Below, piece by piece: positions 25,521 to 57,823 of a stretch of 64,000 nucleotides of DNA. This stretch comes from Patescibacteria group bacterium (lineage in GTDB: Bacteria > Patescibacteriota > Microgenomatia > UBA1400 > PJMF01). The notes beneath the pieces are model-generated. The model was not told the origin of the DNA. It did no database searches and worked only from the letters and a program-made list of their open reading frames with translations. Numbering within the stretch: position 1 is the stretch's first letter; each line of letters starts with the position of its first letter. The stretch is from assembly GCA_045541795.1 (NCBI GenBank), contig JAZQJV010000018.1, positions 37,857 to 101,856 of the forward strand, read 5' to 3'. Made by a program: the position numbers and the translations under genes.

Positions 25521-25650
25521 TATTAGCACTCTATCATTTAGACTGCTAACGTTTTTAACTACTTTAAAATTTACCTATGTATCAATATAAATTCATTTAT
25601 TGTACACAATAAATACTCAATTTTCTTTTTCATTTTTACCGTATAACTGG
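25521..25650 (-). repeat. Full-length copy (reverse orientation) of the modular intergenic repeat, with the hairpin module C, the palindrome module B and the ttaccgtataa module A. It overlaps the stop codon of the A2M-like gene.
   Basis: The reverse complement of 25521-25622 is about 85% identical to 3853-3950. Positions 25611-25650 match 14730-14770. Confidence 0.7.
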
Positions 25651-28600
25651 TTGGGTCTCGCCGCCGCTGACTTCATCACCATCTGCCGCCACTTTTTGCG
25701 CCGTCTCTACCACTTCTTCTTGTCTCGTCATCACTTCTGGCGTAATGACGGGAGGTGGGGTCGGCGGTCGGCGGTTTTTGCGGATGATCGTGACTATGCC
25801 GGCTATGATTGCTACAGTTGCTAAAGCGAGTAAGATCCACGCATTAGTGCTGCCCTCGGGCTTGCTGATTAGTGTTTCTTGCTCGTCAGCGTAAGTCTCA
25901 TCAGCCTTGCTGATCCATGCCGGCTGCTTATCTAAGATTTGGATTTTATCCGTCATGGCTGTCTGCGCTACAAAGTCAGCATCATACATCGAACCGACAC
26001 GGGTCGGCGGTGCGCTTACTGTTTGTGCCAAATTTGTTAATACCGCTTGGTAAGAGACAATCGTCATTCCTCGTTTGACTTCATACAAAGTACCATTAAA
26101 GCCAGTGAAATTAAACGTCCGATTGGCCCAGACATTGTTTTCCCGCAAAAGTGGGCGCAAATTGCTGGGCAGATAATCATCAATATTGACGAAATATTGT
26201 GTCTGGCCTTTATTCTCAATCCCCAAGTATACCGTCACGATGTCGCCGGCTTTGATGTCCTCGCCAGTTTTTTCGGCGCGCACGTAGGCCTTGTAAATAT
26301 TGAGCTTCTTGTTTTCCCGCGGGGAATTGGTGCTGGTACGCCACTGATCGACACTGACGGTCACGTATATGGGTGCATCAGCGCCGTCATCTGTACGGCG
26401 TACGGTAATGGTATTGACGTCACCTGGTAAGTCAGCTAAGTTGACCGTAAAATGCTTTTCCCGGTCTATGCCAGAATTAAAATCAGCCATACCGATGGTC
26501 TGCTCGCCAGCCAAAATCACATAACTGCCGCCAACATCTTGGGGCGCAGCATACTCATACCATGCCATCAATGCCTCAATTGCTGTCGCGCTTTCGTAAG
26601 TGTTGGCCCAGCCAGCCTCGCGCCGATACCCCAAAAGCTGTGTCACGAGTTTTTCCAACTGTTGTTGATAGCCGCCATATTCTTGGTGATAAGCCAATAC
26701 TGCCTGTATCGTCAGTGCTAGATCTGCCGGTACGCTCCGGTAACGTTGGGCCTCACTACTGGTCAGATCGATGTTGTCATTTTCCATCGCTCGCAGTAAA
26801 CGGGTGACATTATGACTGGCTGCTTCTCGGTCGCCAGCTAAAAGATTAGCTTGCACCATCCACGAAAGCAAATCAACGTCAGTGGTGGCGGCGGCATTCA
26901 TCTGATCGTAATACTGTAAAGCGGCATCAAAGCTGGAAACTGATTTTCCTTCCATGGTCACTGTCTGACTGCGCTCACCCAGCAAAAGCAAACCGTACAC
27001 ACTGGAAATTAAATCAGCACTATTCAAACGTTCGCCAGCCGCTAAGTATTTACCCTGTAAAGTGTCAGCCAAAAACTGTGCGGCTCGAGCTTGCACCGGA
27101 GTTTGGGCTTGCGGCAAATGCTTCACCACGTATGTCGTCCGGAAAGCGCTAGCATCACCGCGAGTTTTATTCCAAAAACCCCAGCCGCCGCTGCTTTGCT
27201 GCAAAGAAGTCAGATTTTTCACGCCCGTCTCAATTAATTGATCAAGATCCACGCCGTCAAAATCTTCACTACTAAAGTAGTCACTATCGTGCGCTGCCAG
27301 GGCCGGCACTAATCTGGAGGTCACTTGCTCCACACAACCGCGCGGATACTCCAGCAAATCCTTCATCGCACTGCGCAGTGATGAGAGTAAATCCGCCGCT
27401 ACGCTGATGCTTACGCTCGAGCGCTCTCGCTCACTGTCGGGAGCAACTCCCAGATCAAATTCGCCCGCATGCAGTGAAAACTGACTCGTTTTCTGACTGT
27501 AGCCAAAAGGAAGAATCTGTAAGGTTTTAACCAGCACATCACCACTGCCTCCACTGCTGACATTACGCACGCCCGTAGTGATTTTGGTCGCTGGCATTTC
27601 ACTGATTGCTTTTACCGGTACGGTGACGTTTTTGGTTTCGCCAGCTGTGAGCGTAAGGCTGGAGGGGAAAGTTTCCAGAGTCTGCAAACCTTCTCCCGCT
27701 TCCCAGACAGGTACAAAGCTTTGCGTGACACCAGTATAATTCGTCACACTAAAACCCAAATGTAAAATGTCGCCCACGCGCATTCTTTCGGGCGCAATTA
27801 CCCGGGAGACTACGTCTTTTTGCGTGACTACTTCCTGTTTGCTTTCGCCTACTACTGTTTCCGGCGTCACGGCCACGCCCGTGAGTGCCCAGGTAGTCAA
27901 GTTATCCGGCATCACAAATTCCGTGCTGGCTTCACCATTGCTGTCGGTAATGATTTTTGGATTCCAGTAAGCGGTATCTTTGAAAACATCGCGCAGTTCA
28001 CTACCATCGCCACCACCGCCCTCGGCGCCAAAAAGCATAATGGATTGTAGTGAGTGGTAAGTACGGATCCAGTGATGACGCTCACTCCAGTAACGGCTAA
28101 AAATATCGCCCCGGTGTGAAGCCGCCAGCTCAAGCAAGGCTTTGTCAATCGTCCACAAAGTGACGCTGGCGCTTAGTGGTTTGCCTGTGTAGGCATTGGT
28201 AGTTTTTATTTTTACTTTTACGCTGTCACCAGGATTGTAAATTTCTTTGTCTGTAGTAATTTCTACGTTAATCTTTTTCAGGTCTCGAGCCATGTCCACG
28301 CCGCTCGTGCTGGAGATGTAATTATTACGGTCAAAAAGTGATACGTCATGGAAAGTGTTTGGCTGATCGGTATCTACTGCCTCGTAAGCGACTTGATCAG
28401 GGCTTTGGTGGAAAGTGCCGATAGAGTAACGATCTAGCCGCTGTCGGCCAAAGTCAGCAAAATACTGCCGACCGACTAAATTCTTGCCTACTTCGTAGCT
28501 GACATTGATTTTTTCACTCGGCACGTGCTTTTTGTCTTTGTCAATCACGATTTTGAGGGCAGAATCAGGGTCACTGCTGACGCCATTGCTACTTCCATCC

Positions 28601-30402
28601 AAGCCATAATCACTCCCACTATTGTCGTCACAATAAAACCAATCATAAGCAGCTTGAAAGTGTCCGTTCTCATCATAAACTTTGTAAATCACGCTACGAT
28701 TATCACAAGTACTGGGGCGATAACCAAAACTAAAATTCCCGTCAGCATCAGTACGGCTTTCGAGTGTAGTCAATTCCAAAAACTGCTCATAATGATCTGG
28801 GTCGCGCAAAATAATGGTGGCCGTCATCCGTCTGTTGGCAGCACTGACTTCATCACGGATACTGTTGATCTTTCCCGTCATTTCCATGCCGCTGCCCACT
28901 TGGAAGCTTTTGTTGGTGTCGCTTGTTTTAATTTCAAAAGGCGTGTAATTTATTTTTACCACTTTGAAGTCTTCGGCAGGCTCACTCAGGCCGTCACTAT
29001 AGCGGACAAATAAGGTGTAATAAAGCTGCGTTGTTCCTGACTCTTCACGTTTGTCCTCTTGCTTAGGCAGTCCAGTTTTAATTTCCCAGTCGAGCTCACC
29101 ATTTTCGCCCAGTGTCAGCGCGTGCCACTGGCAATCTTCGTTGTCATCATTGCCGCCCCAGGTATATCCTTGTTTGAAACAATAACTCACGCTTGAGCCA
29201 TTCATATCATGACCGGCAAAACTTGTCCCGCGCACGTGGGCGCTCACATTTTCTCCGGTCACTAGTGTATCTTCGTCTACATCCAAAATCAACTCATATT
29301 CCGGTTTGACGTACTCTCTCACTTCAAACCAAGTACTATTGCTGTACCGGTGCTCGCCACCCACAGACAAATAATAATCCGTCAGATCTGCATTCTCTCC
29401 GATCTTCCAGCTGCCATCAATGCCGCCGTATTCATCCGGGGTGTAAGTTTGTGCCCAATCAGTCACTTCACCATTTTTGCCAGAGTGAGTAATTTTCACG
29501 CTCACAGGTTCACGAGGCACACTGTAACGCGCGTCATCTTCTCGGCGCAGGAAAGCTTTAAAATATACCGTATCGCCGCGCTGGTAAAGCGGTTTATCGG
29601 TAAAAACATAATTATTTGCATCAGCGTGGTAAATCGAGTAGCTACCACCCGCAGTCCATAAACTACCAAGTTCCACGTCCTGGATCGCTAAAGGGATAAA
29701 ATCCCAACCGTTTGCCGTCACCACTACTAAAGCATCAGCATTTTCGGAGTAAGGGACAGTTGCGATCCCGTTGCTCGGGAAAGAAATTTCGTCGAGCGCG
29801 TGTACGCCGTCTTGTAAATTATACACGAACACTTGTCCGCTGATATTACCCGAGCCGCTAGCCAAATCCTGCGACCATAATGTAAGGTTTTCGTCACCAT
29901 TTTTGGCCATGGTAGCAAAACTTGAGCGCGTCACTAAAGCAAATTGCTCCTGGTCAGCGTCTACTGCCCGTATCCACCAAGCACCCGTGGCGGCTGGTAC
30001 GTCTAATTCATAATTACGGCCAGCCAACTGGTCCAAAGTCACACTGGTCACAGGCAATGCCAAGTCAAAATCAAAGTTTGACCACTGCAACTGACGGCGT
30101 TTGAAATAACTTTGCACTTCCTCATCTGGACTACTATATATCAAAGCATCAAGCAAGCCGTCCAAATCCAAAGGATAAAGACTGATCACTGCTTTAGGAT
30201 CGCTAAAATCTTGCGGATTTAGCTTGATTTTGTCATCAAGTCCCAGTGGTACAAATACAGAACGTGCCCCATAGTCTTCGGTAAAATTAAAACGTATCCG
30301 GCGCTGTTGCTGGTAAGCGGCACCAATTTCCTTGCCCTCGCCAAAAAACAATAAACTCAAACTCACCAGTATAGTCAACAAAAAACGTCCACACCATTTC
30401 AT
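25636..30402 (-). CDS. Alpha-2-macroglobulin family protein (bacterial A2M/ECAM-like, thioester-containing), 1,589 aa from Met at 30402, with an N-terminal signal peptide and a C-terminal TM anchor plus a Pro-rich cytoplasmic tail
   Basis: LEYPRGCVEQVTSRLVPALA matches the bacterial A2M thioester region (compare the E. coli YPYGCLEQTTS motif). DTAYWNPKIITDSNGEASTEFVMPDNLTTWALTGVAV matches the A2M domain. The start is chosen at MKWCGRFLLTILVSLSLLFF (signal peptide), downstream of the ORF-track Met at 30771. The C-terminus AWILLALATVAIIAGIVTII-RKNRRPPTPPP is a TM followed by a basic stop-transfer. Confidence 0.8.
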   Translation of the reverse strand: MKWCGRFLLTILVSLSLLFFGEGKEIGAAYQQQRRIRFNFTEDYGARSVFVPLGLDDKIKLNPQDFSDPKAVISLYPLDLDGLLDALIYSSPDEEVQSYFKRRQLQWSNFDFDLALPVTSVTLDQLAGRNYELDVPAATGAWWIRAVDADQEQFALVTRSSFATMAKNGDENLTLWSQDLASGSGNISGQVFVYNLQDGVHALDEISFPSNGIATVPYSENADALVVVTANGWDFIPLAIQDVELGSLWTAGGSYSIYHADANNYVFTDKPLYQRGDTVYFKAFLRREDDARYSVPREPVSVKITHSGKNGEVTDWAQTYTPDEYGGIDGSWKIGENADLTDYYLSVGGEHRYSNSTWFEVREYVKPEYELILDVDEDTLVTGENVSAHVRGTSFAGHDMNGSSVSYCFKQGYTWGGNDDNEDCQWHALTLGENGELDWEIKTGLPKQEDKREESGTTQLYYTLFVRYSDGLSEPAEDFKVVKINYTPFEIKTSDTNKSFQVGSGMEMTGKINSIRDEVSAANRRMTATIILRDPDHYEQFLELTTLESRTDADGNFSFGYRPSTCDNRSVIYKVYDENGHFQAAYDWFYCDDNSGSDYGLDGSSNGVSSDPDSALKIVIDKDKKHVPSEKINVSYEVGKNLVGRQYFADFGRQRLDRYSIGTFHQSPDQVAYEAVDTDQPNTFHDVSLFDRNNYISSTSGVDMARDLKKINVEITTDKEIYNPGDSVKVKIKTTNAYTGKPLSASVTLWTIDKALLELAASHRGDIFSRYWSERHHWIRTYHSLQSIMLFGAEGGGGDGSELRDVFKDTAYWNPKIITDSNGEASTEFVMPDNLTTWALTGVAVTPETVVGESKQEVVTQKDVVSRVIAPERMRVGDILHLGFSVTNYTGVTQSFVPVWEAGEGLQTLETFPSSLTLTAGETKNVTVPVKAISEMPATKITTGVRNVSSGGSGDVLVKTLQILPFGYSQKTSQFSLHAGEFDLGVAPDSERERSSVSISVAADLLSSLRSAMKDLLEYPRGCVEQVTSRLVPALAAHDSDYFSSEDFDGVDLDQLIETGVKNLTSLQQSSGGWGFWNKTRGDASAFRTTYVVKHLPQAQTPVQARAAQFLADTLQGKYLAAGERLNSADLISSVYGLLLLGERSQTVTMEGKSVSSFDAALQYYDQMNAAATTDVDLLSWMVQANLLAGDREAASHNVTRLLRAMENDNIDLTSSEAQRYRSVPADLALTIQAVLAYHQEYGGYQQQLEKLVTQLLGYRREAGWANTYESATAIEALMAWYEYAAPQDVGGSYVILAGEQTIGMADFNSGIDREKHFTVNLADLPGDVNTITVRRTDDGADAPIYVTVSVDQWRTSTNSPRENKKLNIYKAYVRAEKTGEDIKAGDIVTVYLGIENKGQTQYFVNIDDYLPSNLRPLLRENNVWANRTFNFTGFNGTLYEVKRGMTIVSYQAVLTNLAQTVSAPPTRVGSMYDADFVAQTAMTDKIQILDKQPAWISKADETYADEQETLISKPEGSTNAWILLALATVAIIAGIVTIIRKNRRPPTPPPVITPEVMTRQEEVVETAQKVAADGDEVSGGETQPVIR

Positions 30403-30466
30403 ATCTACTATCATAACACGCACCCTCATACTTGTCAAATCTGTGCACATGTAGTAAAATGAATTT

Positions 30467-31150
30467 ATGCCATTTGCAAGCACCAAACAATCAGCTGCGC
30501 CAGACCCTAATTCATCGGCCGACATCGCCGAAAATAGTGTCACTTGGGAAGAAGATGTGAACGTCGATCCTGACGAAGTTATTTTGGCGGCGATCATGGA
30601 AAACCTCGAGTCGGATATATGCGCTCGCTTGCAGGAGGATTTTGGCGACGAACTAGCGGCCACTTTTGAACAGGCACTTGCTGGCAACGGACAATTTGTA
30701 CGCATGTTGCTGCAGTCAGGCGTCCCGGTGGTGACGATGTTTGAGTGTCTGCGCGGGCGCCAGACGGCCATTAAAGATCAAGCGACTCTTGATGCTCTTT
30801 TGGATCACGGCTTGAGTTTGGAGCTTTTGCTGGGTGAGGCAGTGCCGTTTTATTTGCTAGTCTCTAGTGCCAATCGTGATGAGAGACTTTTTGACGCCTT
30901 GCTTGCCCACAAAAACATTAATCTGGACGATTTACTCCTGGCCAAAGCCGATCCGACCAAACTTGCCCGTCATCTTGATCGCTTTTCGCCAGTCAACGTG
31001 AGACTGCTACTACAATACGGCATCCCGCTACCCACGCTGGAAGCATACATTGATCAGTGTGACGCTGTCAATGAGCAACGCGGCTATGCGCCGCACTATT
31101 TCCGCCGGCGGGTGCAGGATATTTTGGATAGCGCGCACACAGGCGTGTGA
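30467..31150 (+). CDS. Hypothetical cytoplasmic protein with degenerate ankyrin-like LLxxGxxL repeats
   Basis: LLQSGVPV / LLDHGLSL / LLAHKNINL / LLLQYGIPL periodicity is visible. It is leaderless behind a TAAAAT -10. Confidence 0.35.
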   Translation: MPFASTKQSAAPDPNSSADIAENSVTWEEDVNVDPDEVILAAIMENLESDICARLQEDFGDELAATFEQALAGNGQFVRMLLQSGVPVVTMFECLRGRQTAIKDQATLDALLDHGLSLELLLGEAVPFYLLVSSANRDERLFDALLAHKNINLDDLLLAKADPTKLARHLDRFSPVNVRLLLQYGIPLPTLEAYIDQCDAVNEQRGYAPHYFRRRVQDILDSAHTGV

Positions 31151-31406: not shown

Positions 31407-31435
31407 CGCTCATTTTTGTGGTATAATAAGAATAT
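31407..31435 (+). promoter_or_regulatory. Extended -10 promoter TTTGTGGTATAAT with the ATG 8 nt downstream (leaderless)
   Basis: catttttgtggtataataagaatatATG is read directly. The same motif recurs at 18237, 32663, 34118, 35222, 38676 and 47700. Confidence 0.55.
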
Positions 31436-32563
31436 ATGCGAAAACTTCGTGTTTTTAGCCAGGCTGTGTGTGTGTGTGTGGCTCTCGCCACTCTTTGTGC
31501 TAAGTCGGTAAGTGCAAATTATTGCTTGTGTCAGTATCCCGCCAGCGGGACACCGACAGAACTAGACTGCAAAGATGTAGGAAGCACGACCTCATGTAGT
31601 GATCAGTGTAGCTATTGGTCAGTTTACACATGGGGAACACATAGCGGACCATATAATACTTCAACCGAATGTGCAGCAAAGAAGCTTGAAGCTCAAAGGA
31701 AAACTGGTGCTGATACGGGCAATCAAACATGCCTGATTGTGGTTCAAGACAACACTACTAAGGGAGTTAGACATACGTGTGAAAAACTAGGCGGCGCCAG
31801 TTCTTGCAATGATGTAGCAGCGGCGGCAACACTTAATAGCAACGAAAGTATTAGGCAGAAGACGCTGTTTGATGATCCCTCAGCCTGTGAAAATGCATTT
31901 AGTACTCTTACAACACAAGTAGCCTGCAAGAAAACTAAAAACAGCGAGTGTATAGATATTACCGTCTACACTGATAGTTGGGATACAATAGGGTATTTTG
32001 CTTGTTTTAATGGCGAAAACCGTATGTCGTATTGTCAGGGTCCACAGTGCTGTATCTATCAAAACGATAGTGGACGCCAAACATGTCAATGCGGTACTGA
32101 TAATCTTACTGACAGCGGAAGTTGCAAGAGCACCCACGGTAGTGCTGGTTCATTGGTAAGTGGTCCGTATCACCGTACCGCTTGCGCAGATAAGCTAGAC
32201 TCCGAGCCCCTCACCGTCGACCTCCTCCCCAAATACGAAAAACTCTCCCAGACCTCACTTGACGAAATCAACCCTCTTACCCAAAGCAAAGTCCTCAGCG
32301 AAGCCAACACTCGTACTCCCGGCGCTCTCGTCTCTCGCCTTGTCCGCAATATTGTCTTCCCGATTGCTGGCTTACTTCTCTTTCTCATGATTACCTGGTC
32401 TGGCTTTCAAATCGTCCAAGGCGGAATGATGGGTGATGATAATGCTGTCAGCTCAGGTAAAGGACGTCTTACCGCCACTATTGTCGGCTTCCTACTGCTT
32501 TTTGGCAGTTACTGGCTCTGGTCGCTGGTAGAAGCGGCGCTGGGACTGGGGACAACGAGCTAG
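31436..32563 (+). CDS. Secreted cysteine-rich protein (about 28 Cys) with a conserved C-terminal two-TM hairpin anchor (VirB2/TrbC-type pilin-like), paralog A
   Basis: Signal peptide MRKLRVFSQAVCVCVALATLCAKSVSA. A Cys-rich ectodomain ends with the QCGTDNLTDSGSC motif shared with paralog B. The C-terminal 123 aa are identical to paralog B: TM1 IVFPIAGLLLFLMITWSGFQIV, loop QGGMMGDDNAVSSGKGR, TM2 LTATIVGFLLLFGSYWLWSLV. Confidence 0.75.
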   Translation: MRKLRVFSQAVCVCVALATLCAKSVSANYCLCQYPASGTPTELDCKDVGSTTSCSDQCSYWSVYTWGTHSGPYNTSTECAAKKLEAQRKTGADTGNQTCLIVVQDNTTKGVRHTCEKLGGASSCNDVAAAATLNSNESIRQKTLFDDPSACENAFSTLTTQVACKKTKNSECIDITVYTDSWDTIGYFACFNGENRMSYCQGPQCCIYQNDSGRQTCQCGTDNLTDSGSCKSTHGSAGSLVSGPYHRTACADKLDSEPLTVDLLPKYEKLSQTSLDEINPLTQSKVLSEANTRTPGALVSRLVRNIVFPIAGLLLFLMITWSGFQIVQGGMMGDDNAVSSGKGRLTATIVGFLLLFGSYWLWSLVEAALGLGTTS

Positions 32564-32684
32564 ACAAACCCAGAAATTGATAAATTAAGAAATAGAAAGG
32601 TAGAAAAAATATAAATAAAGTGGAGGTGAGAGCGTGTTTTAATTTCCCCTATTTACGGGAAGATTTTGTGGTATAATAAAAGGT

Positions 32685-34097
32685 ATGACGAAGAAAATTG
32701 GCTTCATTGTTATACTTGCAGCAACAAACATAATATTAGTTACTAATGCGGTTTTTGCGGACGAGAGTTGGTGCTTATTTGTTCCTACGCCAGGAACTGA
32801 TTCTGCTGGTAAGACGTATGCGGGAAGGTTTGATTGTTCACCACCAGATGTTTCCGGCGCCTGTAATCCAGCACTCGCAGGATATGGTAGCTGGGAAGCC
32901 GCTGGTTCGGGATACAAAAGCTTTGATGAATGTGCGAATGCTTATGACAATCTAAGCGGTTACTGCTATACAAGTGGTAGTGACGAATGTGCTAGTGCTA
33001 AGCGCAACACTTGCAGTTCCTTTTTTTATAAAGACGCAAATACGTGTGGGAATGAACATCTAGATTTCAACGCTTACTGCTATGACCCGGCTACAAACAA
33101 ATGCAATAAAATAAGTGGAGGGGTATCCAAAAGCTCTACTAGCAGTAAATGTGTCGGCGAATACACATATAAGGGGGGCACGGCAGAGTCTAATAAGAAA
33201 TCTTGCGAGGACTATGCTGCAACAATGGACGAACAGAAAAAAGCGGGTGATAAATTTTGTCTCTGGTACACTCATGGAGAGAATAATAATGAAAAGGCGG
33301 GAGATACGGATTTTAGGTCATTCAGATGTGAACCGATACTAATTGAGACCGAAACAACATGTGATGATCGTTTCCCACCAACTAATAGTGAAAAATGGAT
33401 ACTCTATCGCAAACAACCATATTCTACTCAAGAAGAATGTAAAAACGCTCTGTACCAAGAAAAAGTCTGGTGTTTCCATCCAAACGACGGCCGCTGCCAT
33501 AATGAAACATACGTCCAGTGTAGGGAACAAAACGGACAACAGTATAAGGATAAGACAACGTGTGAAGATAAACACCAAAAATGCTGTAAATATGAAGATA
33601 AGAATGGACACTCAACTTGCCAGTGTGGCTCTGATAATTTGGACGCAAAGGGGCAATGCTTAGCTTCATCTGATAAATACGGTTCTTTAAAGGGTAGCTA
33701 TGACGGTAGAACTGCTTGTTCTGATTCACTCGACTCTGAACCTCTCACCGTCGACCTCCTCCCCAAATACGAAAAACTCTCCCAAACCTCACTTGACGAA
33801 ATCAACCCTCTTACCCAAAGCAAAGTCCTCAGCGAAGCCAACACTCGCACTCCCGGCGCTCTCGTCTCTCGCCTTGTCCGCAATATTGTCTTCCCGATTG
33901 CCGGTCTTTTACTCTTTCTCATGATTACCTGGTCTGGCTTTCAAATCGTCCAAGGCGGAATGATGGGTGATGATAATGCTGTCAGCTCAGGTAAAGGACG
34001 TCTTACCGCCACCATCGTCGGCTTCCTACTGCTTTTTGGCAGTTACTGGCTCTGGTCGCTGGTAGAAGCGGCACTAGGACTGGGGACGACGAGCTAA
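32685..34097 (+). CDS. Secreted cysteine-rich protein (about 40 Cys) with the same C-terminal two-TM hairpin anchor, paralog B
   Basis: An N-terminal signal/TM (IGFIVILAATNIILVTNAVFA) is followed by a divergent Cys-rich ectodomain and the shared QCGSDNLDAKGQC motif. The last ~123 aa are identical to paralog A. The nt identity is about 97% over 33719-34097 vs 32191-32563, and all differences are synonymous. Confidence 0.75.
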   Translation: MTKKIGFIVILAATNIILVTNAVFADESWCLFVPTPGTDSAGKTYAGRFDCSPPDVSGACNPALAGYGSWEAAGSGYKSFDECANAYDNLSGYCYTSGSDECASAKRNTCSSFFYKDANTCGNEHLDFNAYCYDPATNKCNKISGGVSKSSTSSKCVGEYTYKGGTAESNKKSCEDYAATMDEQKKAGDKFCLWYTHGENNNEKAGDTDFRSFRCEPILIETETTCDDRFPPTNSEKWILYRKQPYSTQEECKNALYQEKVWCFHPNDGRCHNETYVQCREQNGQQYKDKTTCEDKHQKCCKYEDKNGHSTCQCGSDNLDAKGQCLASSDKYGSLKGSYDGRTACSDSLDSEPLTVDLLPKYEKLSQTSLDEINPLTQSKVLSEANTRTPGALVSRLVRNIVFPIAGLLLFLMITWSGFQIVQGGMMGDDNAVSSGKGRLTATIVGFLLLFGSYWLWSLVEAALGLGTTS

Positions 34098-34141: not shown

Positions 34142-35203
34142 ATGTCAGAAAAAATTAACCAGTACGTACTGCAGGAAATTAATGAACTCAAAAGCCGTAT
34201 CCAAGAGGCCAAATTGCCGGAAGCTGTCCAAAAAAAAGCCGAACGTGACATCATTAGTCTGGAACGCTCGATTGACTTCGGCAATTACGACGAAAAATAC
34301 GAAATGGTGACGCACTACATCGACTGGCTGGTGCGCATCCCCTGGAATAAATTCACCAAAGACCGTCTCGACATCAATGAGACCCGCCGTATTTTTGACT
34401 CACACCACTACGGTATGATGGAAGTAAAAAACCGCTTCCTTGAATACGTCTCCATCCTCAAGCTCCAAAACCAAAATAACCAAACTCAAGCCTACCGCGC
34501 GCCGATTTTACTACTCGTTGGGCTGGTGGGTACTGGTAAGACTACTTTTGCTTATTCATTGGCTGAAGCCCTTGGTCGTTACATTGTCCGCATTCCTTTT
34601 GGTGGTATGGGTTCGGCCAGAGAACTGCGCGGCTGGTCGCGGCTACATCTGGAGGCCGAACCAGGCAAGATTATCAAAGGACTTTGCGAGGCAGGTGTCC
34701 GCAATCCGATTTTCCTGCTTGATGAAATTGACCGGGTGGCGGAAAGCGCGCTTATGGACATTATGGGCGTACTGGTGGAGTTGCTTGATCCGGCGCAAAA
34801 CCAAGCGTTTACTGATACTTATATCGACTACCCGGTAGATCTTTCTCAGGCGATCTTTTTGGCCACTGCCAACAATACCACCAAAATTGCCACTGCCGTC
34901 ATGGATCGTATGGAAAAAATTTCTATGCCTTCTTACACTGATTACGAAAAAGAAATGATCGCCAAAAATTACATCTTGCCGCGGCTCTACTCCAATGCTG
35001 GTATCCGTCCCGAGCAAATCCATATCGATGACTCACTCTGGAGTAAAATCATCCGTCCACTCGGCTATGATATGGGCATCCGCACACTCGAGCGGACTCT
35101 AGAAAACATGGTTCGCAAAGCCGTACGCATTATGGTGGAACAAGGCTATCAGGAAATCTGGGTGACGCCAGAAAATTCCAAGATCTTCTTGCCCCAATAC
35201 TAA
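34142..35203 (+). CDS. Lon-like AAA+ ATPase module without the N-terminal substrate domain and without the S16 protease domain
   Basis: YIDWLVRIPWNKFTKDRLDINETRRIFDSHHYGMMEVKNRFLEYV and ILLLVGLVGTGKTTFAYSLAEALGRYIVRIPFGGMGSARELRGWSRLHLEAEPGKIIKGLCEAGVRNPIFLLDEIDRV align closely with E. coli Lon residues ~270-420 (Walker A, Walker B and sensor regions). The ORF stops at 35203 and recJ follows with its own promoter. Confidence 0.75.
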   Translation: MSEKINQYVLQEINELKSRIQEAKLPEAVQKKAERDIISLERSIDFGNYDEKYEMVTHYIDWLVRIPWNKFTKDRLDINETRRIFDSHHYGMMEVKNRFLEYVSILKLQNQNNQTQAYRAPILLLVGLVGTGKTTFAYSLAEALGRYIVRIPFGGMGSARELRGWSRLHLEAEPGKIIKGLCEAGVRNPIFLLDEIDRVAESALMDIMGVLVELLDPAQNQAFTDTYIDYPVDLSQAIFLATANNTTKIATAVMDRMEKISMPSYTDYEKEMIAKNYILPRLYSNAGIRPEQIHIDDSLWSKIIRPLGYDMGIRTLERTLENMVRKAVRIMVEQGYQEIWVTPENSKIFLPQY

Positions 35204-36951: not shown

Positions 36952-38676
36952 ATGCGCCGATTATTAATGAGTTTTGGCATTTTTTTCCTGCTTTCCGGGA
37001 TGAGTTGTAGTGCTATTGACCCGGTAGATGAACTGCAAGGCCAGATCAACGAGCTGGAAAACCTCAAGAAAATGTCTGAAGATGCGACTTCTAATCTGGA
37101 AGCAGAAGTTAAGAATTTAAGCAGTCGCATTAACGCTGCCAGACGTCAAGTGGCACAAATTAAAGTCCAAATGGAGGAATTAGCCACCAGCATTGAGCAG
37201 CGCGAACAAACTCGCGAGGAAAAAACCGAACTTCTCGGTAATGTCGTCGCTAAAACTTACAAATCATCCCGTCAAACGTCACCTCTGCTCATCCTCCTCG
37301 ATCCCGAAAGTAATCATTCTGCCTTCCTTTCGGCCGTCAGTTACCAGGCTGCGCAAAAACGCAACCAGCAACAAATCCAAGATATTGTCAATGAACTTAT
37401 CCAGCTACAGCAAGACAAGGTATCTTTGGAAAACACCAAGACTCGTCTGGTTGCCTTAGAAGCGCAGCTCGACGAACAAACAAAATTTTTCCAGCACGAA
37501 ATTGACTCTGCCAAAAGTTACCAAGCTGAGCTTTCTGGAAAAATCGCCGAACTGTCCGCCCGCCAAAAGCAAATCATTGACGCTCGCTCGGGCACATCCA
37601 TTACTAGTGTCGGCGAGGTCCCGGCTGCCGATGATCCCAAAGCCTCCATCGAATGGAAAGCCCAGGCTCCCAGTAATCATTTTGCCGTTTTCTCTTTTGG
37701 CGCCTACACGCATCGTAACGGTATGAGTCAGTACGGCGCTCGCGCGCGCGCGAGCGAAGGCCAAAGTGTAGAGGAGATTTTAGCTCATTACTATCCCGGC
37801 ACTCATCTGGAAAAGGGCTATAGCGAGATGGGGGAGATCGACGTACAAGGTTACGGTCGGATGTCATTTGAAGATCAATACTTACAAAGTATTTACGAAA
37901 TGCCCGGCAGCTGGCCGCTGGAAGCGCTCAAAGCTCAGGCGATCGCTGCCCGCACTTATGCCATCCGCTACACCGGCAACGGCGCTCGTTCTATCTGTAC
38001 TACTGAAGCCTGTCAGGTCTACAAAAACGGCAAAAAGGGCGGCGACTGGGAAAAGGCAGTCAATGAGACCAAAAACTGGGTTTTAGTCACTGATGACGGC
38101 CAGCCGGCCTCTACGCAATACGCCTCCACTCACGGCGGCTATGCCAATACCAGCGGCTGGGATACGACCGATGGCAGCGGTGATGGTACCTGGTCAGATC
38201 GCGCCTGGGAAGCAAAAGCGTCCTCACCTTGGTTTTACAAAGCTTGGTGGCGCTCTGGGTATTCCTCCAGAGGTGATACTTGTGGCCGCGACAGTCCGTG
38301 GCTGTCTCAAGCCGAAATGAGCGACATCCTCAATGCATACCTGGTCAAAAACGGCTCTACTGGTGCCGACATCAGCCGGATCCAGCCTGTGACGATTAAC
38401 TCCTGCAAAATCGGTGGTTCGGGTGGCAATCCTTATTCCCTTGATGAACTCAAACGTTTTGCCGAGGCCGCTGGCGGAGCCGTCACTACGATCTCCGGTG
38501 TGACCGTGTCTCATGGCAGCGGCGGTCAGACAGCTCAGGTCCGTTTCCAGACAAATCGCGGCGAGCTCACCTTGTCAGGCAGCGAATTTAAGCAAATCTT
38601 TAATCTGCGCGCCCCCGGGTTTTTACGCATTCCCCAAAGTAGTTTTGCCAGTTTTAATATCGAGTACAAACCTTGA
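36952..38676 (+). CDS. Secreted SpoIID/LytB-domain protein with an N-terminal ~200-aa coiled coil (putative peptidoglycan remodelling enzyme)
   Basis: A signal peptide is followed by a long heptad-rich region. MSQYGARARASEGQSVEEILAHYYPGT and PLEALKAQAIAARTYAIRYTG are SpoIID-family motifs. Confidence 0.7.
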   Translation: MRRLLMSFGIFFLLSGMSCSAIDPVDELQGQINELENLKKMSEDATSNLEAEVKNLSSRINAARRQVAQIKVQMEELATSIEQREQTREEKTELLGNVVAKTYKSSRQTSPLLILLDPESNHSAFLSAVSYQAAQKRNQQQIQDIVNELIQLQQDKVSLENTKTRLVALEAQLDEQTKFFQHEIDSAKSYQAELSGKIAELSARQKQIIDARSGTSITSVGEVPAADDPKASIEWKAQAPSNHFAVFSFGAYTHRNGMSQYGARARASEGQSVEEILAHYYPGTHLEKGYSEMGEIDVQGYGRMSFEDQYLQSIYEMPGSWPLEALKAQAIAARTYAIRYTGNGARSICTTEACQVYKNGKKGGDWEKAVNETKNWVLVTDDGQPASTQYASTHGGYANTSGWDTTDGSGDGTWSDRAWEAKASSPWFYKAWWRSGYSSRGDTCGRDSPWLSQAEMSDILNAYLVKNGSTGADISRIQPVTINSCKIGGSGGNPYSLDELKRFAEAAGGAVTTISGVTVSHGSGGQTAQVRFQTNRGELTLSGSEFKQIFNLRAPGFLRIPQSSFASFNIEYKP

Positions 38677-38697
38677 TCGGTGTGGTATAATATCCCC

Positions 38698-39900
38698 ATG
38701 CAAAGGCTTTGTCGTTGGTTAAGTTTTGACTGGGTACGTATTGGTTTGATTTGGATCGTCTATCATCTCTTCATCTTGACTGTCGCGAGTCTGACTACTT
38801 ACTTTGAGCCGCTCGGCTATCATCCCAGTCACGCGCTCTCAGAACTCCTCGATGCAGCTCCGTTGTCGCCTTACATTTCTCGTCTCGCTGGCTTTGATGG
38901 CGTGCATTACCAGACTATCATCAATCACCGCGGCTACCGAGAAATTGGCGGTGTACAGGCTTTTTTCCCGCTTTATCCTTGGCTCATGTCACTGTTTAAT
39001 TTTATCACTCACCAGTCTATTGTTTCGGGTTTACTGATTTCCAGCCTGAGCCTATATGGATTTTTACTGCTTCTTTTCCGCTGGACTAGAAAAAAAACCG
39101 ACACTACCACCGCTTGGTGGCTGATCGCCCTCGTTTTGTGTTTACCAGGCAGTTTTTTCTATCTTACGGTGTACACGGAGAGCCTCTTTTTATTCCTACT
39201 TTTAGCTGCTTTTACCGCTTATGAACACAAAAATTACCCCATTTGTGCCGTTTGCTTGTTTTTCCTTTCTGCCTGCCGGATTGTGGGCATTTTGGCAGTG
39301 GTTGCACTGTTTTGTGACTATTTTATAAAGTCATACAAAAGACATCAATTAACCAAAAAATCTTCTCTTTGTAATCTTTTTGTACTCAGCCTCGGCAGTC
39401 TTGGTTTGATCTCCTATATGATCCACTTATACCTTATTCATGGTGACCCTCTAATGTTTGTCCATGTCCAAGCTGATTTTGGCGGTGGGCGGGACACCTC
39501 ACAGTTGGTGCTGCTACCGCAAGTTTTTTACCGTTATCTAAAAATGTGCCTGGTCGGGTTTAGTTCTTGGCCTGAAGCCTACCGCGTTTACCAGGAATTG
39601 CTGATTTCGCTCGCTTATTTACTGGGGCTTATCGGCGCCAGTTACCAATATTGGCGACAAAAAGACCGCATTCAACCTCTCTACTTACTCCTTTTTAGCC
39701 TGGCCGCCTACCTGATCGGCCCAGCCACCGGGATGCTCAGCAGTATGAGCCGTTATACACTAGTCTGCCTGTCAGTACCCCTTTTTATCTTGTGCGTAAG
39801 AAAAATACGCTGTCATTATTTGATACCCTCTATAATTATCATGGCGGTCATCCAAATCATCAACTTAATATTATTTCTCGAGGGTATTTTTATCGCATAA
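38698..39900 (+). CDS. Polytopic membrane protein, probable GT-C-fold glycosyltransferase
   Basis: About 10 TM helices with an HYQTIINHRGYREIGGVQAFFPLYPW loop. The start is at the ATG 6 nt after TGGTATAAT (the ORF-track GTG start lies inside the promoter). Confidence 0.45.
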   Translation: MQRLCRWLSFDWVRIGLIWIVYHLFILTVASLTTYFEPLGYHPSHALSELLDAAPLSPYISRLAGFDGVHYQTIINHRGYREIGGVQAFFPLYPWLMSLFNFITHQSIVSGLLISSLSLYGFLLLLFRWTRKKTDTTTAWWLIALVLCLPGSFFYLTVYTESLFLFLLLAAFTAYEHKNYPICAVCLFFLSACRIVGILAVVALFCDYFIKSYKRHQLTKKSSLCNLFVLSLGSLGLISYMIHLYLIHGDPLMFVHVQADFGGGRDTSQLVLLPQVFYRYLKMCLVGFSSWPEAYRVYQELLISLAYLLGLIGASYQYWRQKDRIQPLYLLLFSLAAYLIGPATGMLSSMSRYTLVCLSVPLFILCVRKIRCHYLIPSIIIMAVIQIINLILFLEGIFIA

Positions 39901-47732: not shown

Positions 47733-48197
47733 ATGAACGAAAACAAACAACTTATCATCGTCGCTGTTTTATCAGCACTGGCAATATTTTTAGGTATTGG
47801 TGGCGGCTGGTTGCTCCGTGGGACTGGCACTACTCGCAGTGGCGGTGCTAGTGTGGACGGTGATGAACCCGTTGCGGTGACGGCTACAGTGGCTTCTGAT
47901 GTTTCTGCCATCAAAAAGGGCGATGTTTTTGGTAGCAGTAATCCTGATGATTTTGTCGATAGTGCTCAAGGTTATCTGCAAGCCGGTGGCGCTCATGGAG
48001 AGGGTTCTCACGCGCTACTGCGCCAAGGTGGCGCCAGTCAGACAGTATATTTGACGTCTTCCGTCACTGACCTTGATAAATTTGTCGGCATGGACATCCG
48101 CGTCTGGGGAGAAACATTTTCTGGTCAGTCCGTGGGTTGGCTCATGGATGTAGGACGAGTAGAAGTGATCAATCCCCAAGGTACCGATCCAAGTTAA
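47733..48197 (+). CDS. Hypothetical N-terminally anchored secreted protein
   Basis: A TM/signal (LIIVAVLSALAIFLGIGGGWLL) is followed by a Gly/Ser-rich linker. It is preceded by TGGTATAAT and an AAGGAG RBS. Confidence 0.4.
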   Translation: MNENKQLIIVAVLSALAIFLGIGGGWLLRGTGTTRSGGASVDGDEPVAVTATVASDVSAIKKGDVFGSSNPDDFVDSAQGYLQAGGAHGEGSHALLRQGGASQTVYLTSSVTDLDKFVGMDIRVWGETFSGQSVGWLMDVGRVEVINPQGTDPS

Positions 48198-48203
48198 GGC
48201 TAT

Positions 48204-48518
48204 ATGTTGGGTTTAGATACCAAGCCACAATTCATCAAATATCGGCTCTGGAATAACCGTCGCCCAATCACAGTGGTTTTTGCCGATGGCGAAGTCTGGC
48301 TCAATCAAAACCAAGTGGCCGAGCTTTACAAATTACAATTGTCTACTGTTAATGAACACTTACGCAAAATCACCGTGAGCGATGGCCCTTATCCTGCTAA
48401 GCACTATGCTCGGCGTTTCCGCACTCCGGGCAAAGACGGTAAACTGTATGAAGTCTGGCACTATCGTCTGGAGGCGGTGGAAGCATTAAGCAGCCGTACC
48501 CGCAAGAGTTCGCTTTAA
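48204..48518 (+). pseudogene. Truncated RhuM-family (virulence-protein RhuM-like) gene: only the N-terminal ~100 aa remain
   Basis: GEVWLNQNQVAELYKLQLSTVNEHLRKI and RFRTPGKDGKLYEVWHYRLEAV match the conserved N-terminal RhuM blocks. Full-length RhuM proteins are about 330 aa. The ORF ends 2 nt before the convergent ABC gene. Confidence 0.5.
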
Positions 48519-48520
48519 AA

Positions 48521-49282: not shown

Positions 49283-49283
49283 A

Positions 49284-50111: not shown

Positions 50112-50130
50112 ATTGCTGATTATATCATAC

Positions 50131-50721: not shown

Positions 50722-51065
50722 TGATTTTCTATGCCGCGGAATTTTTGCGGCTGCTTATTATTACTGCGTGTAGGCTTGATTTTGCTCTTGCGGGCGACTT
50801 TTGGCGTTTTGGCGTCACTTAGTAATTCTTTGCGGATCTGCATTAGCCACTCGTAAAGACTAAAATCTGCCCCGATCAGACGTTTGCTCTCGCGTAGTCT
50901 GTCACATGTTTCCTGCCAGTCATGCTCAATCTCGCGGCTTACTTGTCGGCCTTCAGGCGTATGTTTGATGAAATAATCAAAAAGTGCCAAAAGCTCAGCT
51001 AAATTCTCGCCGTTATCACGTGCATTTTCCAGCTGCTGGTCAATGTTTTCTACGTTGACTTCCAT
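50718..51065 (-). CDS. Hypothetical protein (YtxH-like position next to a DUF948-like gene)
   Basis: A charged, helical protein that is operonic with 51065..51334. Confidence 0.3.
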   Translation of the reverse strand: MEVNVENIDQQLENARDNGENLAELLALFDYFIKHTPEGRQVSREIEHDWQETCDRLRESKRLIGADFSLYEWLMQIRKELLSDAKTPKVARKSKIKPTRSNNKQPQKFRGIENQ

Positions 51066-51334: not shown

Positions 51335-51355
51335 CAGGTTCTTTCCTTGTACTTA

Positions 51356-55570: not shown

Positions 55571-55572
55571 GA

Positions 55573-56817: not shown

Positions 56818-56828
56818 CTTATCCTATC

Positions 56829-57821: not shown

Positions 57822-57823
57822 AT

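What the first reader, a model, noticed from the sequence alone, without database searches (positions are those of the whole stretch)
31436..34097. Tandem, diversifying cysteine-rich surface proteins sharing an identical pilin-like two-TM C-terminal anchor
Two adjacent genes encode secreted proteins of 375 and 470 aa. Their ectodomains are unrelated over most of their length but both are extremely Cys-rich. They converge on a shared QCG(T/S)DNL..G.C motif and then on a C-terminal ~123-aa block that is identical at the protein level. At the nucleotide level 32191-32563 and 33719-34097 are about 97% identical, and every difference is synonymous. That is the signature of strong purifying selection or gene conversion on the anchor while the displayed domains diverge.

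The shared block is a helix-loop-helix membrane hairpin: IVFPIAGLLLFLMITWSGFQIV, then QGGMMGDDNAVSSGKGR, then LTATIVGFLLLFGSYWLWSLV. Its organisation is that of VirB2/TrbC-type T4SS pilins and the Gram-positive/CPR T4SS-pilin-like family. Here the pilin-like hairpin is used as the C-terminal anchor of a large disulfide-rich ectodomain rather than as a free pilin subunit.

Each gene has its own TTTGTGGTATAAT leaderless promoter. In an organism that looks like an episymbiont, this resembles a cassette system for presenting variable adhesin or host-interaction domains on a common membrane or pilus scaffold. I cannot name a described family with this architecture.
Basis: partly seen in the sequence, partly recalled or inferred. 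Interest (0 to 1): 0.8.

Follow-up and report, generated by a model that had tools for sequence, protein, structure and literature searches.

The report
Two cysteine-rich extended T4SS-type pilins
Two neighbouring genes of a probable ultra-small (CPR/Patescibacteria) bacterium encode surface proteins that join different disulfide-rich outer domains to one identical pilin-type membrane hairpin; gene conversion keeps that hairpin identical, and this is an undescribed variant of the pilin gene arrays already known in these bacteria.

Summary
Genes 31436-32563 (375 aa) and 32685-34097 (470 aa) encode Sec-signal proteins with 20 and 26 ectodomain cysteines. Their last 122 residues are identical, and all 18 nucleotide differences in that block are synonymous.

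The shared block belongs to Pfam PF18895 (T4SS_pilin), the VirB2-like pilin family of Patescibacteria. Tandem arrays of these pilins are already published. Homology to classical VirB2/TrbC could not be shown here.

The long cysteine-rich N-terminal extension is not unique. It is common in this family: 119 of 125 close relatives longer than 170 aa, and 65 of 67 long ORFs in 75 metagenome loci. I found no paper describing it.

Two things are unusual. First, evolution is concerted. In three related genomes the two extended pilins carry 99-100% identical modules, against 64-84% between genomes and 20-32% in 15 ordinary extended pairs. dS jumps from 0.18 to saturation at the domain boundary. Second, the ectodomains are not unrelated. 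Both are strings of one 4-Cys beta-hairpin/helix unit.

No T4SS genes lie in the window, so pilus incorporation is inferred. Only two copies exist, so there is no cassette library.

Verdict: new variant of a known kind, moderate interest.

The parts
31415..31427 (+). Extended -10 promoter-like element TTTGTGGTATAAT of gene A. The -10 ends 8 nt before the ATG, so the mRNA is probably leaderless or nearly so.
   Evidence: Exact motif at this position. There is no room for a Shine-Dalgarno sequence. The same layout occurs before homologues in L021 and L004. Function is inferred from sequence only.
31436..32563 (+). Gene A: a 375-aa extended T4SS_pilin-family protein (P0005).
   Evidence: ORF. PF18895 at aa 303-356, E=1.5e-5. 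Top hit of the family profile search. AF2 model with pLDDT 76.
31436..31516 (+). Gene A signal peptide (aa 1-27, ...SVSA|NY).
   Evidence: N-terminal hydrophobic segment. AXA-type site read from the sequence. No lipobox and no prepilin motif. The cleavage site is inferred.
31517..32194 (+). Gene A ectodomain: four 4-6-Cys units (aa 28-92, 93-160, 161-203, 204-253), 20 Cys in total.
   Evidence: Cys positions and unit layout. AF2 predicts repeated beta-hairpin, strand and helix; the third unit has low confidence. No Pfam, NCBIfam or PDB match.
32195..32563 (+). Homogenised module, copy A (aa 254-375): linker with the NPL motif plus the two-helix membrane hairpin.
   Evidence: 95% nt identity and 100% aa identity to 33729-34097. 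dS is 0.18 here versus saturated immediately upstream.
32318..32542 (+). Gene A helical hairpin (aa 295-369): helix 1, a GD turn within the loop QGGMMGDDNAVSSGKGR, then helix 2.
   Evidence: AF2 helices H295-332 and H335-369 with pLDDT above 90. Two hydrophobic 19-mers.
32643..32662 (+). Terminator-like GC hairpin followed by a T-run that overlaps the gene B promoter.
   Evidence: Found by the terminator scan. An analogous hairpin plus TTTTGTGGTATAA occurs before both L021 genes. Function is inferred.
32665..32677 (+). Extended -10 promoter-like element TTTGTGGTATAAT of gene B. The -10 ends 7 nt before the ATG.
32685..34097 (+). Gene B: a 470-aa extended T4SS_pilin-family protein (P0006).
   Evidence: ORF. 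PF18895 at aa 398-451, E=3.9e-5. Family profile search. AF2 model with pLDDT 68.
32685..32759 (+). Gene B signal peptide (aa 1-25, ...AVFA|DE).
   Evidence: Hydrophobic segment. Site read from the sequence. Cleavage is inferred.
32760..33728 (+). Gene B ectodomain: six 4-6-Cys units (aa 26-89, 90-126, 127-186, 187-256, 257-297, 298-348), 26 Cys in total.
   Evidence: Unit layout. AF2 predicts six beta-hairpin...helix units; the middle ones have low confidence. Internal duplication is indicated because B residues 9-143 and 187-297 both align to P0012 24-171.
33729..34097 (+). Homogenised module, copy B (aa 349-470).
33852..34073 (+). Gene B helical hairpin (aa 390-463).
   Evidence: AF2 helices H390-427 and H430-463 with pLDDT above 90.
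36952..38676 (+). SpoIID-like peptidoglycan lytic enzyme. It is a conserved neighbour of this pilin family and a candidate cell-wall partner.
   Evidence: PF08486 and TIGR02669. A homologue lies beside the pilin genes in 11 genome loci. It is divergently adjacent in 29 of 34 metagenome loci. The functional link is inferred.

Best explanation
Genes A and B are paralogous, N-terminally extended members of the Patescibacterial T4SS_pilin (PF18895, 'VirB2-like') family.

Shown:
- Each protein has a Sec-type signal peptide.
- Each has an ectodomain made of four (A) or six (B) disulfide-type 4-Cys beta-hairpin/helix units.
- Each has a conserved linker with an NPL motif and a C-terminal two-helix hydrophobic hairpin whose short loop carries Lys/Arg.
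- This architecture is common in the family.
- In this lineage the linker-plus-hairpin module of the two genes is repeatedly homogenised by gene conversion. The tract starts a few residues after the last ectodomain cysteine. After conversion the module is held under very strong purifying selection.
- The ectodomains diverge extremely fast.

Inferred:
- The signal peptide drives the ectodomain outside.
- The hairpin inserts N-out/C-out with its basic loop inside, like a VirB2-type pilin.
- The identical module lets both proteins dock into one and the same assembly, presumably the pilin fibre or T4SS-associated surface structure built with a short 'free' pilin paralogue.
- Two different, rapidly evolving binding domains are thereby displayed on a common scaffold for contact with a host or partner cell.
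- Each gene is transcribed from its own generic extended -10 promoter, probably as a leaderless mRNA.
For: Family membership:
- PF18895 hits at E=1.5e-5 and 3.9e-5.
- 143 of 148 profile relatives hit PF18895.
- The profile search found 1,503 representative clusters. In all top 150 the module sits at the extreme C-terminus, and protein lengths run from 112 to 852 aa.

Architecture is common:
- 119 of 125 relatives longer than 170 aa have at least 4 N-terminal Cys.
- 65 of 67 module ORFs of 250 aa or more in 75 metagenome loci have at least 8 Cys.
- Extended forms sit inside arrays together with short pilins.

Topology:
- There are exactly three hydrophobic segments per protein and an even number of mature Cys.
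- AF2 predicts the hairpin with pLDDT above 90 and a modular ectodomain.

Concerted evolution:
- Within-genome module identity is 100% (window), 99% (goat MAG, L001/L002) and 97-99% over the available part (L021).
- Between genomes it is 64-84% for the module and 23-45% for the linker.
- The ectodomains are orthologous across genomes. A-ecto matches only the goat A-like protein, and B-ecto matches the goat B-like group. The A/B duplication therefore predates the split of these lineages.
- dS is 0.18 in the block, against pS of 0.91 in the 50 codons upstream, with a sharp step at 32195/33729.
- There are 17 synonymous and 0 nonsynonymous differences.
- In 15 ordinary extended/extended pairs the modules are only 20-32% identical.

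Free pilin:
- A short 161-aa paralogue exists in the closest genome and is not homogenised with the extended pair (60% identity).

Literature:
- Patescibacterial T4SS loci carry arrays of VirB2-like pilins, which are essential in Southlakia (PMC10633639, PMC12102498, PMC12857230).
Against: - No VirB4, VirB6 or VirD4 gene, or any other recognisable T4SS gene, is in the 64-kb window or in any related locus scanned with Pfam.
- Genes A and B score just below Pfam's gathering threshold (25.4 and 24.1 bits versus 26.6).
- No pilus of this family has been seen experimentally, so 'pilin' is itself an annotation.
- A 230-320-aa globular load on every subunit would be sterically hard to fit in a VirB2-type helical fibre, so at best these would be minor or tip subunits.
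- The ectodomain models are of moderate or low confidence in the middle units.
Confidence: 0.55

Rival explanations
1. Static membrane anchor. The PF18895 hairpin here never polymerises. A and B are ordinary cell-surface proteins (adhesins or envelope proteins of a wall-poor cell) held in the cytoplasmic membrane by a two-helix anchor. The identical anchors reflect a shared requirement for insertion or for docking to one membrane partner.
Against: The module is the same family that forms multi-gene arrays of 100-150-aa proteins consisting of little more than the hairpin. That is hard to explain for a mere anchor. These small proteins are essential and T4SS-linked in Saccharibacteria (PMC10633639, PMC12102498). 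The extreme conservation covers the whole linker plus hairpin, including the extracellular linker, and exceeds what a passive anchor needs.
Confidence: 0.3
2. Pro-pilin. The Cys-rich region is a long pro-segment that is cleaved in the conserved linker (around the NPL motif). Cleavage would release a standard small pilin and a soluble secreted Cys-rich protein. The two genes would then supply identical pilin subunits plus two different secreted factors.
For: Classical VirB2/TraA pilins are made with long leaders that are removed (general knowledge of the family). The NPL motif and linker are nearly invariant across the family (N, P and L at 90% or more). Short family members begin shortly before this linker. 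Identical mature products would explain selection for identity.
Against: No protease site or dedicated peptidase is evident. The free-pilin-sized paralogue keeps the same linker downstream of its own signal peptide, so the linker belongs to the mature module. In ordinary extended pairs the modules are only 20-32% identical, so producing identical pilins is not the general purpose of the architecture.
Confidence: 0.1
3. No special biology. The identical block is a very recent partial duplication or an assembly artefact (a collapsed or chimeric repeat), and the synonymous-only pattern is chance.
For: Repeats of this kind break assemblies. The related contigs L001, L002 and L021 all end inside the module.
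Against: The two copies differ at 18 positions, so they are not a collapsed repeat, and one contig spans both. The chance of 0 of 17 differences being nonsynonymous is about 1e-10 under neutrality. The same pattern recurs independently in three genomes with different module sequences. dS in the block (0.18) is not that of a brand-new duplication.
Confidence: 0.03

Closest known systems
Patescibacterial (CPR) VirB2-like pilins, Pfam PF18895 T4SS_pilin, and their tandem arrays (Wang et al. 2023, PMC10633639; Quinonero-Coronel et al. 2025, PMC12102498)
   Same: The hairpin module is the same sequence family. Genes are in tandem. The taxonomic range matches: Microgenomatia-type CPR and gut or rumen relatives. 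Each protein has a signal peptide plus two hydrophobic helices.
   Different: Published accounts treat these as small pilins and report that array members are divergent (mean 25%, maximum 54% identity). Here the pilin module carries a 230-320-aa Cys-rich ectodomain, and the two modules are 100% identical through gene conversion. No virB4 is nearby. I found no paper describing the extended forms.
Classical VirB2/TrbC/TraA conjugative pilins (Pfam PF04956)
   Same: The organisation is the same: a cleaved signal peptide, two hydrophobic helices joined by a short basic loop, and both ends outside. There are weak TrbC hits (E=0.05 for A; 3 of 148 relatives at E<=1e-3).
   Different: Homology is not demonstrable (hhalign probability 0.8%; no PDB pilin hit). 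The classical proteins are about 70-aa mature subunits without an ectodomain and are always encoded within a T4SS operon beside virB1 and virB3.
Modular type IV pilins, in which a pilin module is fused to a functional domain (e.g. Streptococcus sanguinis PilB/PilC). Cited from my own knowledge, not tested here.
   Same: The concept is the same: a polymerisation module carries an extra globular domain, so the fibre itself displays an adhesin or enzyme.
   Different: It is an unrelated pilin class with a class III signal peptide and an N-terminal hydrophobic helix. Neither is present here. In those proteins the extra domain is C-terminal, whereas here it is N-terminal.
Paralogous VirB2 arrays of Bartonella and Anaplasma (as cited in PMC12102498)
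   Same: Tandem pilin paralogues are thought to vary the exposed surface for interaction with a host.
   Different: In those arrays the variation lies within the small pilin itself. Here the pilin part is kept identical and the variation lies in an attached ectodomain.
Giardia variant-specific surface proteins (Cys-rich variable ectodomain on a conserved C-terminal membrane anchor). Analogy from my own knowledge; PMC2188815 surfaced.
   Same: A variable Cys-rich ectodomain is combined with an invariant C-terminal anchor shared between paralogues.
   Different: It is a eukaryotic family of hundreds of genes with CXXC motifs and a single TM, and expression switches between genes. Here there are two genes, no CXXC, a two-helix pilin-family hairpin, and no sign of a switching mechanism.

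Membership tests
Pfam PF18895 T4SS_pilin (Patescibacterial / Gram-positive VirB2-like pilin) | Match to the family HMM at or above the gathering score (26.6 bits). | tested here: inconclusive
   A scores 25.4 bits (E=1.5e-5) and B scores 24.1 bits (E=3.9e-5), both just below the cut-off. However, 143 of 148 profile relatives match at E<=1e-3 (best 1.5e-11), and relatives L008, L009 and P0002 pass the cut-off. Membership by transitive homology is secure.
Pfam PF18895 T4SS_pilin | Signal peptide followed by two hydrophobic helices joined by a short polar or basic loop. | tested here: met
   Three hydrophobic segments per protein. AF2 hairpin with pLDDT above 90 and the loop ...GKGR.
Pfam PF18895 T4SS_pilin | Small protein (about 100-150 aa) that is little more than the hairpin. 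| tested here: not met
   The proteins are 375 and 470 aa. Long Cys-rich N-terminal extensions are nevertheless frequent among family members, so small size does not define the family.
Pfam PF18895 T4SS_pilin | Encoded in tandem arrays of paralogues. | tested here: met
   A and B are adjacent. Arrays of 2-12 genes occur in related loci. Arrays are also reported in PMC12102498.
Pfam PF18895 T4SS_pilin | Genomic linkage to T4SS machinery (virB4, virB6 and others). | tested here: not met
   None was found in the 64-kb window or in the flanks of related loci scanned. The rest of the genome is not available. PMC12102498 finds the pilin near virB4 in only 1,135 of 1,948 assemblies.
Classical VirB2/TrbC pilins (PF04956) | Detectable sequence or profile homology to VirB2/TrbC. 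| tested here: not met
   PF04956 scores E=0.052 and 0.38, far below the gathering score. hhalign of the module profile against 8 genuine VirB2/TrbC proteins gives probability 0.8%. The profile against PDB sequences finds no pilin.
Classical VirB2/TrbC pilins (PF04956) | Fold match to solved conjugative pilins. | tested here: inconclusive
Type IV pilins (T4P/T2SS class) | Class III signal peptide (G|F/M xxxE) and an N-terminal hydrophobic helix. | tested here: not met
   The motif is absent. The hydrophobic helices are C-terminal.
Sortase-anchored Gram-positive pilins or surface proteins | C-terminal LPXTG sorting signal, a single hydrophobic stretch and a basic tail. | tested here: not met
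   There is no LPXTG-like motif, and there are two helices rather than one.

The most novel reading that the evidence does not exclude
CPR bacteria possess 'modular T4SS pilins'. In these, a VirB2-like polymerisation module carries large, fast-evolving, disulfide-rich binding domains. In some lineages gene conversion keeps the polymerisation module of different adhesin-bearing subunits identical, so that they remain interchangeable in one fibre. A SpoIID lytic enzyme and a large SLT_3 protein, rather than VirB1, serve as the dedicated cell-wall partners of this pilus locus. That would make these genes the host-recognition determinants of the essential CPR T4SS or pilus apparatus.
Probability: 0.3. 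Interest if true: 0.75.

Novelty: new variant of a known kind. Interest (0 to 1): 0.55.

Why it matters
The T4SS-linked pilin arrays of Patescibacteria are essential for epibiotic growth in the one cultivated system tested, but what they bind and how host specificity is set is unknown.

A large share of the family carries modular Cys-rich ectodomains on the pilin module. In this lineage two such ectodomains are kept on an identical module by concerted evolution while they diverge faster than any other gene in the neighbourhood. Together these findings point to concrete candidates for host-recognition determinants.

They also give a testable prediction: the module is the assembly interface and the ectodomain is the variable ligand binder. 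The near-universal divergent pairing with SpoIID suggests a missing cell-wall-remodelling partner for a system reported to lack VirB1.

If instead the hairpin is only an anchor, the result still corrects how PF18895 proteins are annotated.

Tried and rejected
- **Iterative HMM search for internal repeats in the ectodomains.** Only a weak hit resulted (E=0.036). The repeat claim therefore rests on Cys spacing, AF2 secondary structure and cross-genome BLAST, not on profile statistics.
- **Sequence search of the module against the PDB, as a single sequence and as a 148-sequence profile.** Only spurious membrane-protein hits came back.
- **hhalign against genuine VirB2/TrbC proteins retrieved from annotated plasmids.** Not significant.
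- **NCBIfam on A, B and unannotated neighbours.** No hit for A or B.
- **Looking up the source contig by exact protein.** Not on record.
- **First metagenome scan with alignment A1.** It found nothing. The second scan, with A4, gave 75 loci.
- **Search for T4SS ATPases or VirB6 in the flanks of related loci with Pfam.** None was recognised. This may reflect CPR divergence as well as true absence.
- **Hypothesis that window ORF 38680..39900, next to SpoIID, is a diverged gene-1-type pilin.** Rejected. It is a polytopic membrane protein.
- **Hypothesis that the window modules derive from the free pilin that sits beside Lon in the goat MAG.** Rejected. Identities are about equal: 61% to the free pilin versus 64% to the goat A/B modules.
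- **Silent or partial cassettes in the window.** None found by blastn, tblastn or HMM.
- **Type IV pilin, sortase substrate or lipoprotein readings.** Rejected on motifs.
Full report
**1. The observation**

The two ORFs exist as described: 31436..32563 (375 aa) and 32685..34097 (470 aa), both on the + strand. They contain 23 and 26 Cys, or 20 and 26 after the predicted signal peptides. That is 8-9% of the ectodomain.

Counting from the stop codon, the last 122 residues are identical. Eighteen of 369 nt differ, including TAG versus TAA, and all differences are synonymous. The block is 32195-32563 versus 33729-34097. With 92.8 synonymous and 273 nonsynonymous sites, 17 synonymous and 0 nonsynonymous changes has a neutral probability of about 1e-10.

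Both proteins contain QCG(T/S)DNL...G.C. TTTGTGGTATAAT lies 8 nt (A) and 7 nt (B) before each ATG. It also occurs at 18239 and 47701, and with one mismatch at 60177 before tRNA-Ser. That makes 5 matches against 0.11 expected. It is therefore the organism's generic extended -10 promoter, here placed so close to the ATG that a leaderless mRNA is plausible.

**2. What the shared block is**

Pfam gives PF18895 (T4SS_pilin) for both proteins over the two hydrophobic helices. E-values are 1.5e-5 and 3.9e-5, with scores of 25.4 and 24.1 bits against a gathering score of 26.6. TrbC/VirB2 (PF04956) gives only E=0.05 and 0.38.

A profile of the block plus four database relatives was searched against 1.84 billion representative proteins. 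It found 1,503 clusters at E<=1e-3. In every one of the top 150 the module is at the extreme C-terminus, and lengths range from 112 to 852 aa. Of 148 of these, 143 hit PF18895, with a best E of 1.5e-11. Family membership is therefore secure by transitive homology.

Each protein has exactly three hydrophobic segments: the signal peptide and two helices. AF2 predicts a long helical hairpin with pLDDT above 90 (A: 295-332 and 335-369; B: 390-427 and 430-463). The turn lies in GMMGDDN, and GKGR sits at the start of helix 2. There is no LPXTG, prepilin or CXXC motif.

**3. Relation to classical pilins**

I could not show homology to VirB2/TrbC/TraA.
- The 148-sequence profile finds no pilin in PDB sequences.
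- hhalign of a 33-sequence module alignment against eight genuine VirB2/TrbC proteins taken from annotated plasmids gives probability 0.8%. The alignment does pair helix 1 with helix 1 and helix 2 with helix 2.
- Foldseek gives nothing at E<=1e-3.

'Works like VirB2' thus rests on the shared organisation and on the literature, not on a test passed here.

**4. What is already known**

Patescibacterial T4SS loci contain VirB2-like pilins detected with PF18895 and PF04956. Quinonero-Coronel et al. report 441 arrays of 2-11 pilin genes in 383 assemblies, mostly Microgenomatia and Saccharimonadia. Identity within an array averages 25% and reaches at most 54% (PMC12102498). In Southlakia epibionticum the pilin array within the T4SS cluster is essential (PMC10633639; reviewed in PMC12857230).

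None of these papers, nor my other searches, describe large Cys-rich N-terminal ectodomains on these pilins. They are treated as small proteins.

**5. The extended architecture is common**

Among the 152 proteins in hand, 125 are longer than 170 aa, and 119 of those have at least 4 Cys N-terminal to the module.

In 19 loci from species-representative genomes the encoded proteins form a continuum, from 100-aa bare hairpins to 540-aa Cys-rich forms. Their records are titled Woesebacteria, Blackburnbacteria, Gottesmanbacteria and 'Patescibacteria group', plus gut or rumen MAGs that are probably mislabelled 'Pseudomonadales'.

In 75 metagenome loci I found 242 module ORFs. Sixty-seven are 250 aa or longer, and 65 of those have at least 8 Cys.

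A conserved cluster layout emerges:
- SpoIID on the opposite strand;
- 33-417 nt away, a first extended pilin of about 380-440 aa with 10-16 Cys;
- a second pilin of 113-560 aa with up to 45 Cys;
- sometimes a few unrelated genes;
- an array of 8-10 short pilins;
- a large (811-1,420 aa) secreted Cys-rich protein, which in two cases has a C-terminal lysozyme-like SLT_3 domain.

**6. The ectodomains**

A and B do not align with each other upstream of the last Cys unit, and there is no Pfam, NCBIfam or PDB match. They are nevertheless not unrelated.
- winA 48-366 aligns to goat B-like 162-539, and winB 144-461 aligns to goat A-like 51-391.
- B residues 9-143 and 187-297 both align to the same stretch of P0012.
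- By Cys spacing, the sequence parses into four (A) and six (B) units of the form C-x6-20-C-x6-14-C-x8-28-[YF]x5C.
- AF2 predicts each unit as a beta-hairpin, usually with a further strand, plus an alpha-helix. The units are at A 29-90, 98-159, 162-200 (low confidence) and 205-252. B has six such units, with the middle ones at low confidence.
- An iterative HMM did not confirm the repeats statistically, so this point is moderately supported.

**7. Concerted evolution**

The closest genome, goat jejunum MAG RGIG2556, has a Lon-like AAA that is 94% identical; other proteins are 41-88% identical. It carries an A-like gene (L001) and a B-like gene (L002). Their modules are 98% identical in nucleotides and differ at 1 of 115 residues.

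A third genome (L021) has a syntenic upstream gene (58% identical to window 30467..31150). It is followed by two tandem extended pilins whose available module parts are 97-99% identical.

Between genomes the module is 64% (window versus goat) to 84% (window versus L021) identical, and the linker only 23-45%. A-ecto matches only the goat A-like protein, and B-ecto matches only the goat B-like group. The A/B duplication therefore predates the split of these lineages, and the modules were homogenised independently in each one.

In the window pair, dS is 0.18 in the block. The 50 codons immediately upstream have pS 0.91 and dN 0.55. Identity falls from at least 90% to 40-57% within 30 nt. In all three genomes the tract starts 3-6 residues after the last ectodomain cysteine.

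Both processes are therefore at work: gene conversion first, then very strong purifying selection. Zero nonsynonymous changes against 17 synonymous implies omega below about 0.06.

This is atypical for the family. In 157 adjacent pilin pairs the median module identity is 31%. In all 15 extended/extended pairs it is 20-32%. A few short-pilin pairs reach 94-99%. The goat genome's 161-aa free pilin (L004) is only 60% identical to the goat A/B modules, so it is not part of the homogenised set.

**8. Context**

The window contains only these two module genes and no partial copies. The neighbours are:
- a giant alpha-2-macroglobulin;
- a conserved 227-aa unknown;
- a 353-aa Lon-like AAA without a protease domain;
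- RecJ;
- SpoIID;
- a polytopic membrane protein;
- an AddA-like helicase and glycolytic genes;
- glycosyltransferases further away.

No T4SS or type IV pilus gene was found.

In the goat MAG the A-like, B-like and free pilin genes sit at three different places. They are flanked by homologues of window regions 47.7-51.8 kb and 51.8-58.8 kb, and by the Lon-like gene, respectively. The pilin genes thus coincide with synteny breakpoints. Three contigs end inside the module.

**9. Mechanism**

Shown: family membership, topology elements, the modular Cys-rich ectodomain, concerted evolution plus purifying selection on the module, rapid ectodomain divergence, and separate promoter-like elements.

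Inferred:
- Sec export and disulfide formation.
- N-out/C-out insertion with the basic loop inside.
- Use of the identical module as a common assembly interface, so that A and B can enter the same pilin-based structure, probably as minor or tip subunits beside a short pilin, and present two different binding domains.

The main rival is a static two-helix anchor (0.3). A pro-pilin cleavage model (0.1) and artefact or recent duplication (0.03) are less likely.

**10. Verdict**

The family and its arrays are known, however, and the cassette idea is not borne out, since there are only two copies.

Three things are new relative to the literature I could search:
- how widespread Cys-rich modular ectodomains are on PF18895 pilins;
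- the lineage-specific concerted evolution that keeps two such pilins on an identical module;
- the conserved SpoIID and SLT_3 partners.

I classify this as a new variant of a known kind, with interest 0.55.

Noticed in passing
window 36952-38676; L007-L013, L015-L018; 29 of 34 metagenome loci among L030-L104: A SpoIID-like lytic enzyme with an N-terminal coiled coil is a near-universal neighbour of this pilin family. It is usually divergently transcribed 33-417 nt from the first extended pilin gene. In the window it lies 2.9 kb downstream on the same strand. It is a candidate functional substitute for VirB1, which PMC12102498 reports as mostly absent.
   Followed up: partly
L010:10270-13758, L040:10233-14495, L008:10559-14158, L012:16227-19751, L016:5976-9569, L031:15487-18945: Large (811-1,420 aa) secreted Cys-rich proteins (24-48 Cys) close the pilin clusters in many CPR loci. 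They are homologous to each other, and two carry a C-terminal SLT_3 lysozyme-like domain. None is present in the window.
   Followed up: partly
L040, L041, L051, L060, L061 (short pilin pairs): Some adjacent short pilins within arrays have 94-99% identical modules. This is well above the 54% maximum within-array identity reported in PMC12102498, so homogenisation or recent duplication also occurs among small pilins.
   Followed up: no
window 31436-34097 vs L001, L002, L004: Between the window and its close relative (goat MAG RGIG2556) the pilin genes sit at synteny breakpoints. The A-like gene is next to homologues of window 47733-51796. The B-like gene is next to the glycosyltransferase cluster 51826-58783. 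The free pilin is convergent with the Lon-like gene. Contigs L001, L002 and L021 all end inside the repeated module.
   Followed up: partly
window 34142-35203; L004:10615-11676: A 353-aa Lon-like AAA+ protein has the AAA and Lon-lid domains only, with no protease or N-terminal domain. It is 94% identical between the two genomes and lies adjacent to a pilin-module gene in both.
   Followed up: no
window 18239, 31415, 32665, 47701, 60177: TTTGTGGTATAAT (an extended -10) recurs 5 times against 0.11 expected, including before tRNA-Ser. Before gene B and both L021 genes it is fused to a GC hairpin plus T-run, so a terminator and the next promoter overlap.
   Followed up: partly
window 25636-30771 (-): A giant alpha-2-macroglobulin-like protein (MG2, A2M, bait region and TED domains) has a C-terminal TM segment. 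It lies immediately upstream of the locus. The listed ORF start probably overextends and overlaps ORF 30467-31150.
   Followed up: no
window 30467-31150; L021:473-1141: A 227-aa protein of unknown function with no signal peptide is conserved (58% identity) directly upstream of the pilin pair in L021, where a ParE toxin-antitoxin pair is inserted between them.
   Followed up: no
window 4102-5292 (-): A bacterial protein gives a strong match to the ALK/LTK glycine-rich domain (PF12810, E=4e-34).
   Followed up: no
window 38680-39900 and 51826-58783: A polytopic membrane protein (weak NCBIfam hit to 'cell surface glycopolymer formation') lies next to SpoIID. There is also a cluster of GT2, PMT_2 and GtrA glycosyltransferases, and in the goat MAG that cluster lies directly upstream of the B-like pilin. 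The Ser/Thr-rich ectodomains (17-23% S+T) might be glycosylated.
   Followed up: no
L003, L005-L010, L015-L019 record titles: Many MAGs that carry CPR-type pilin clusters and SpoIID homologues 50-60% identical to the window's are titled 'uncultured Pseudomonadales' or 'Gammaproteobacteria'. These are probably taxonomic mislabels.
   Followed up: no
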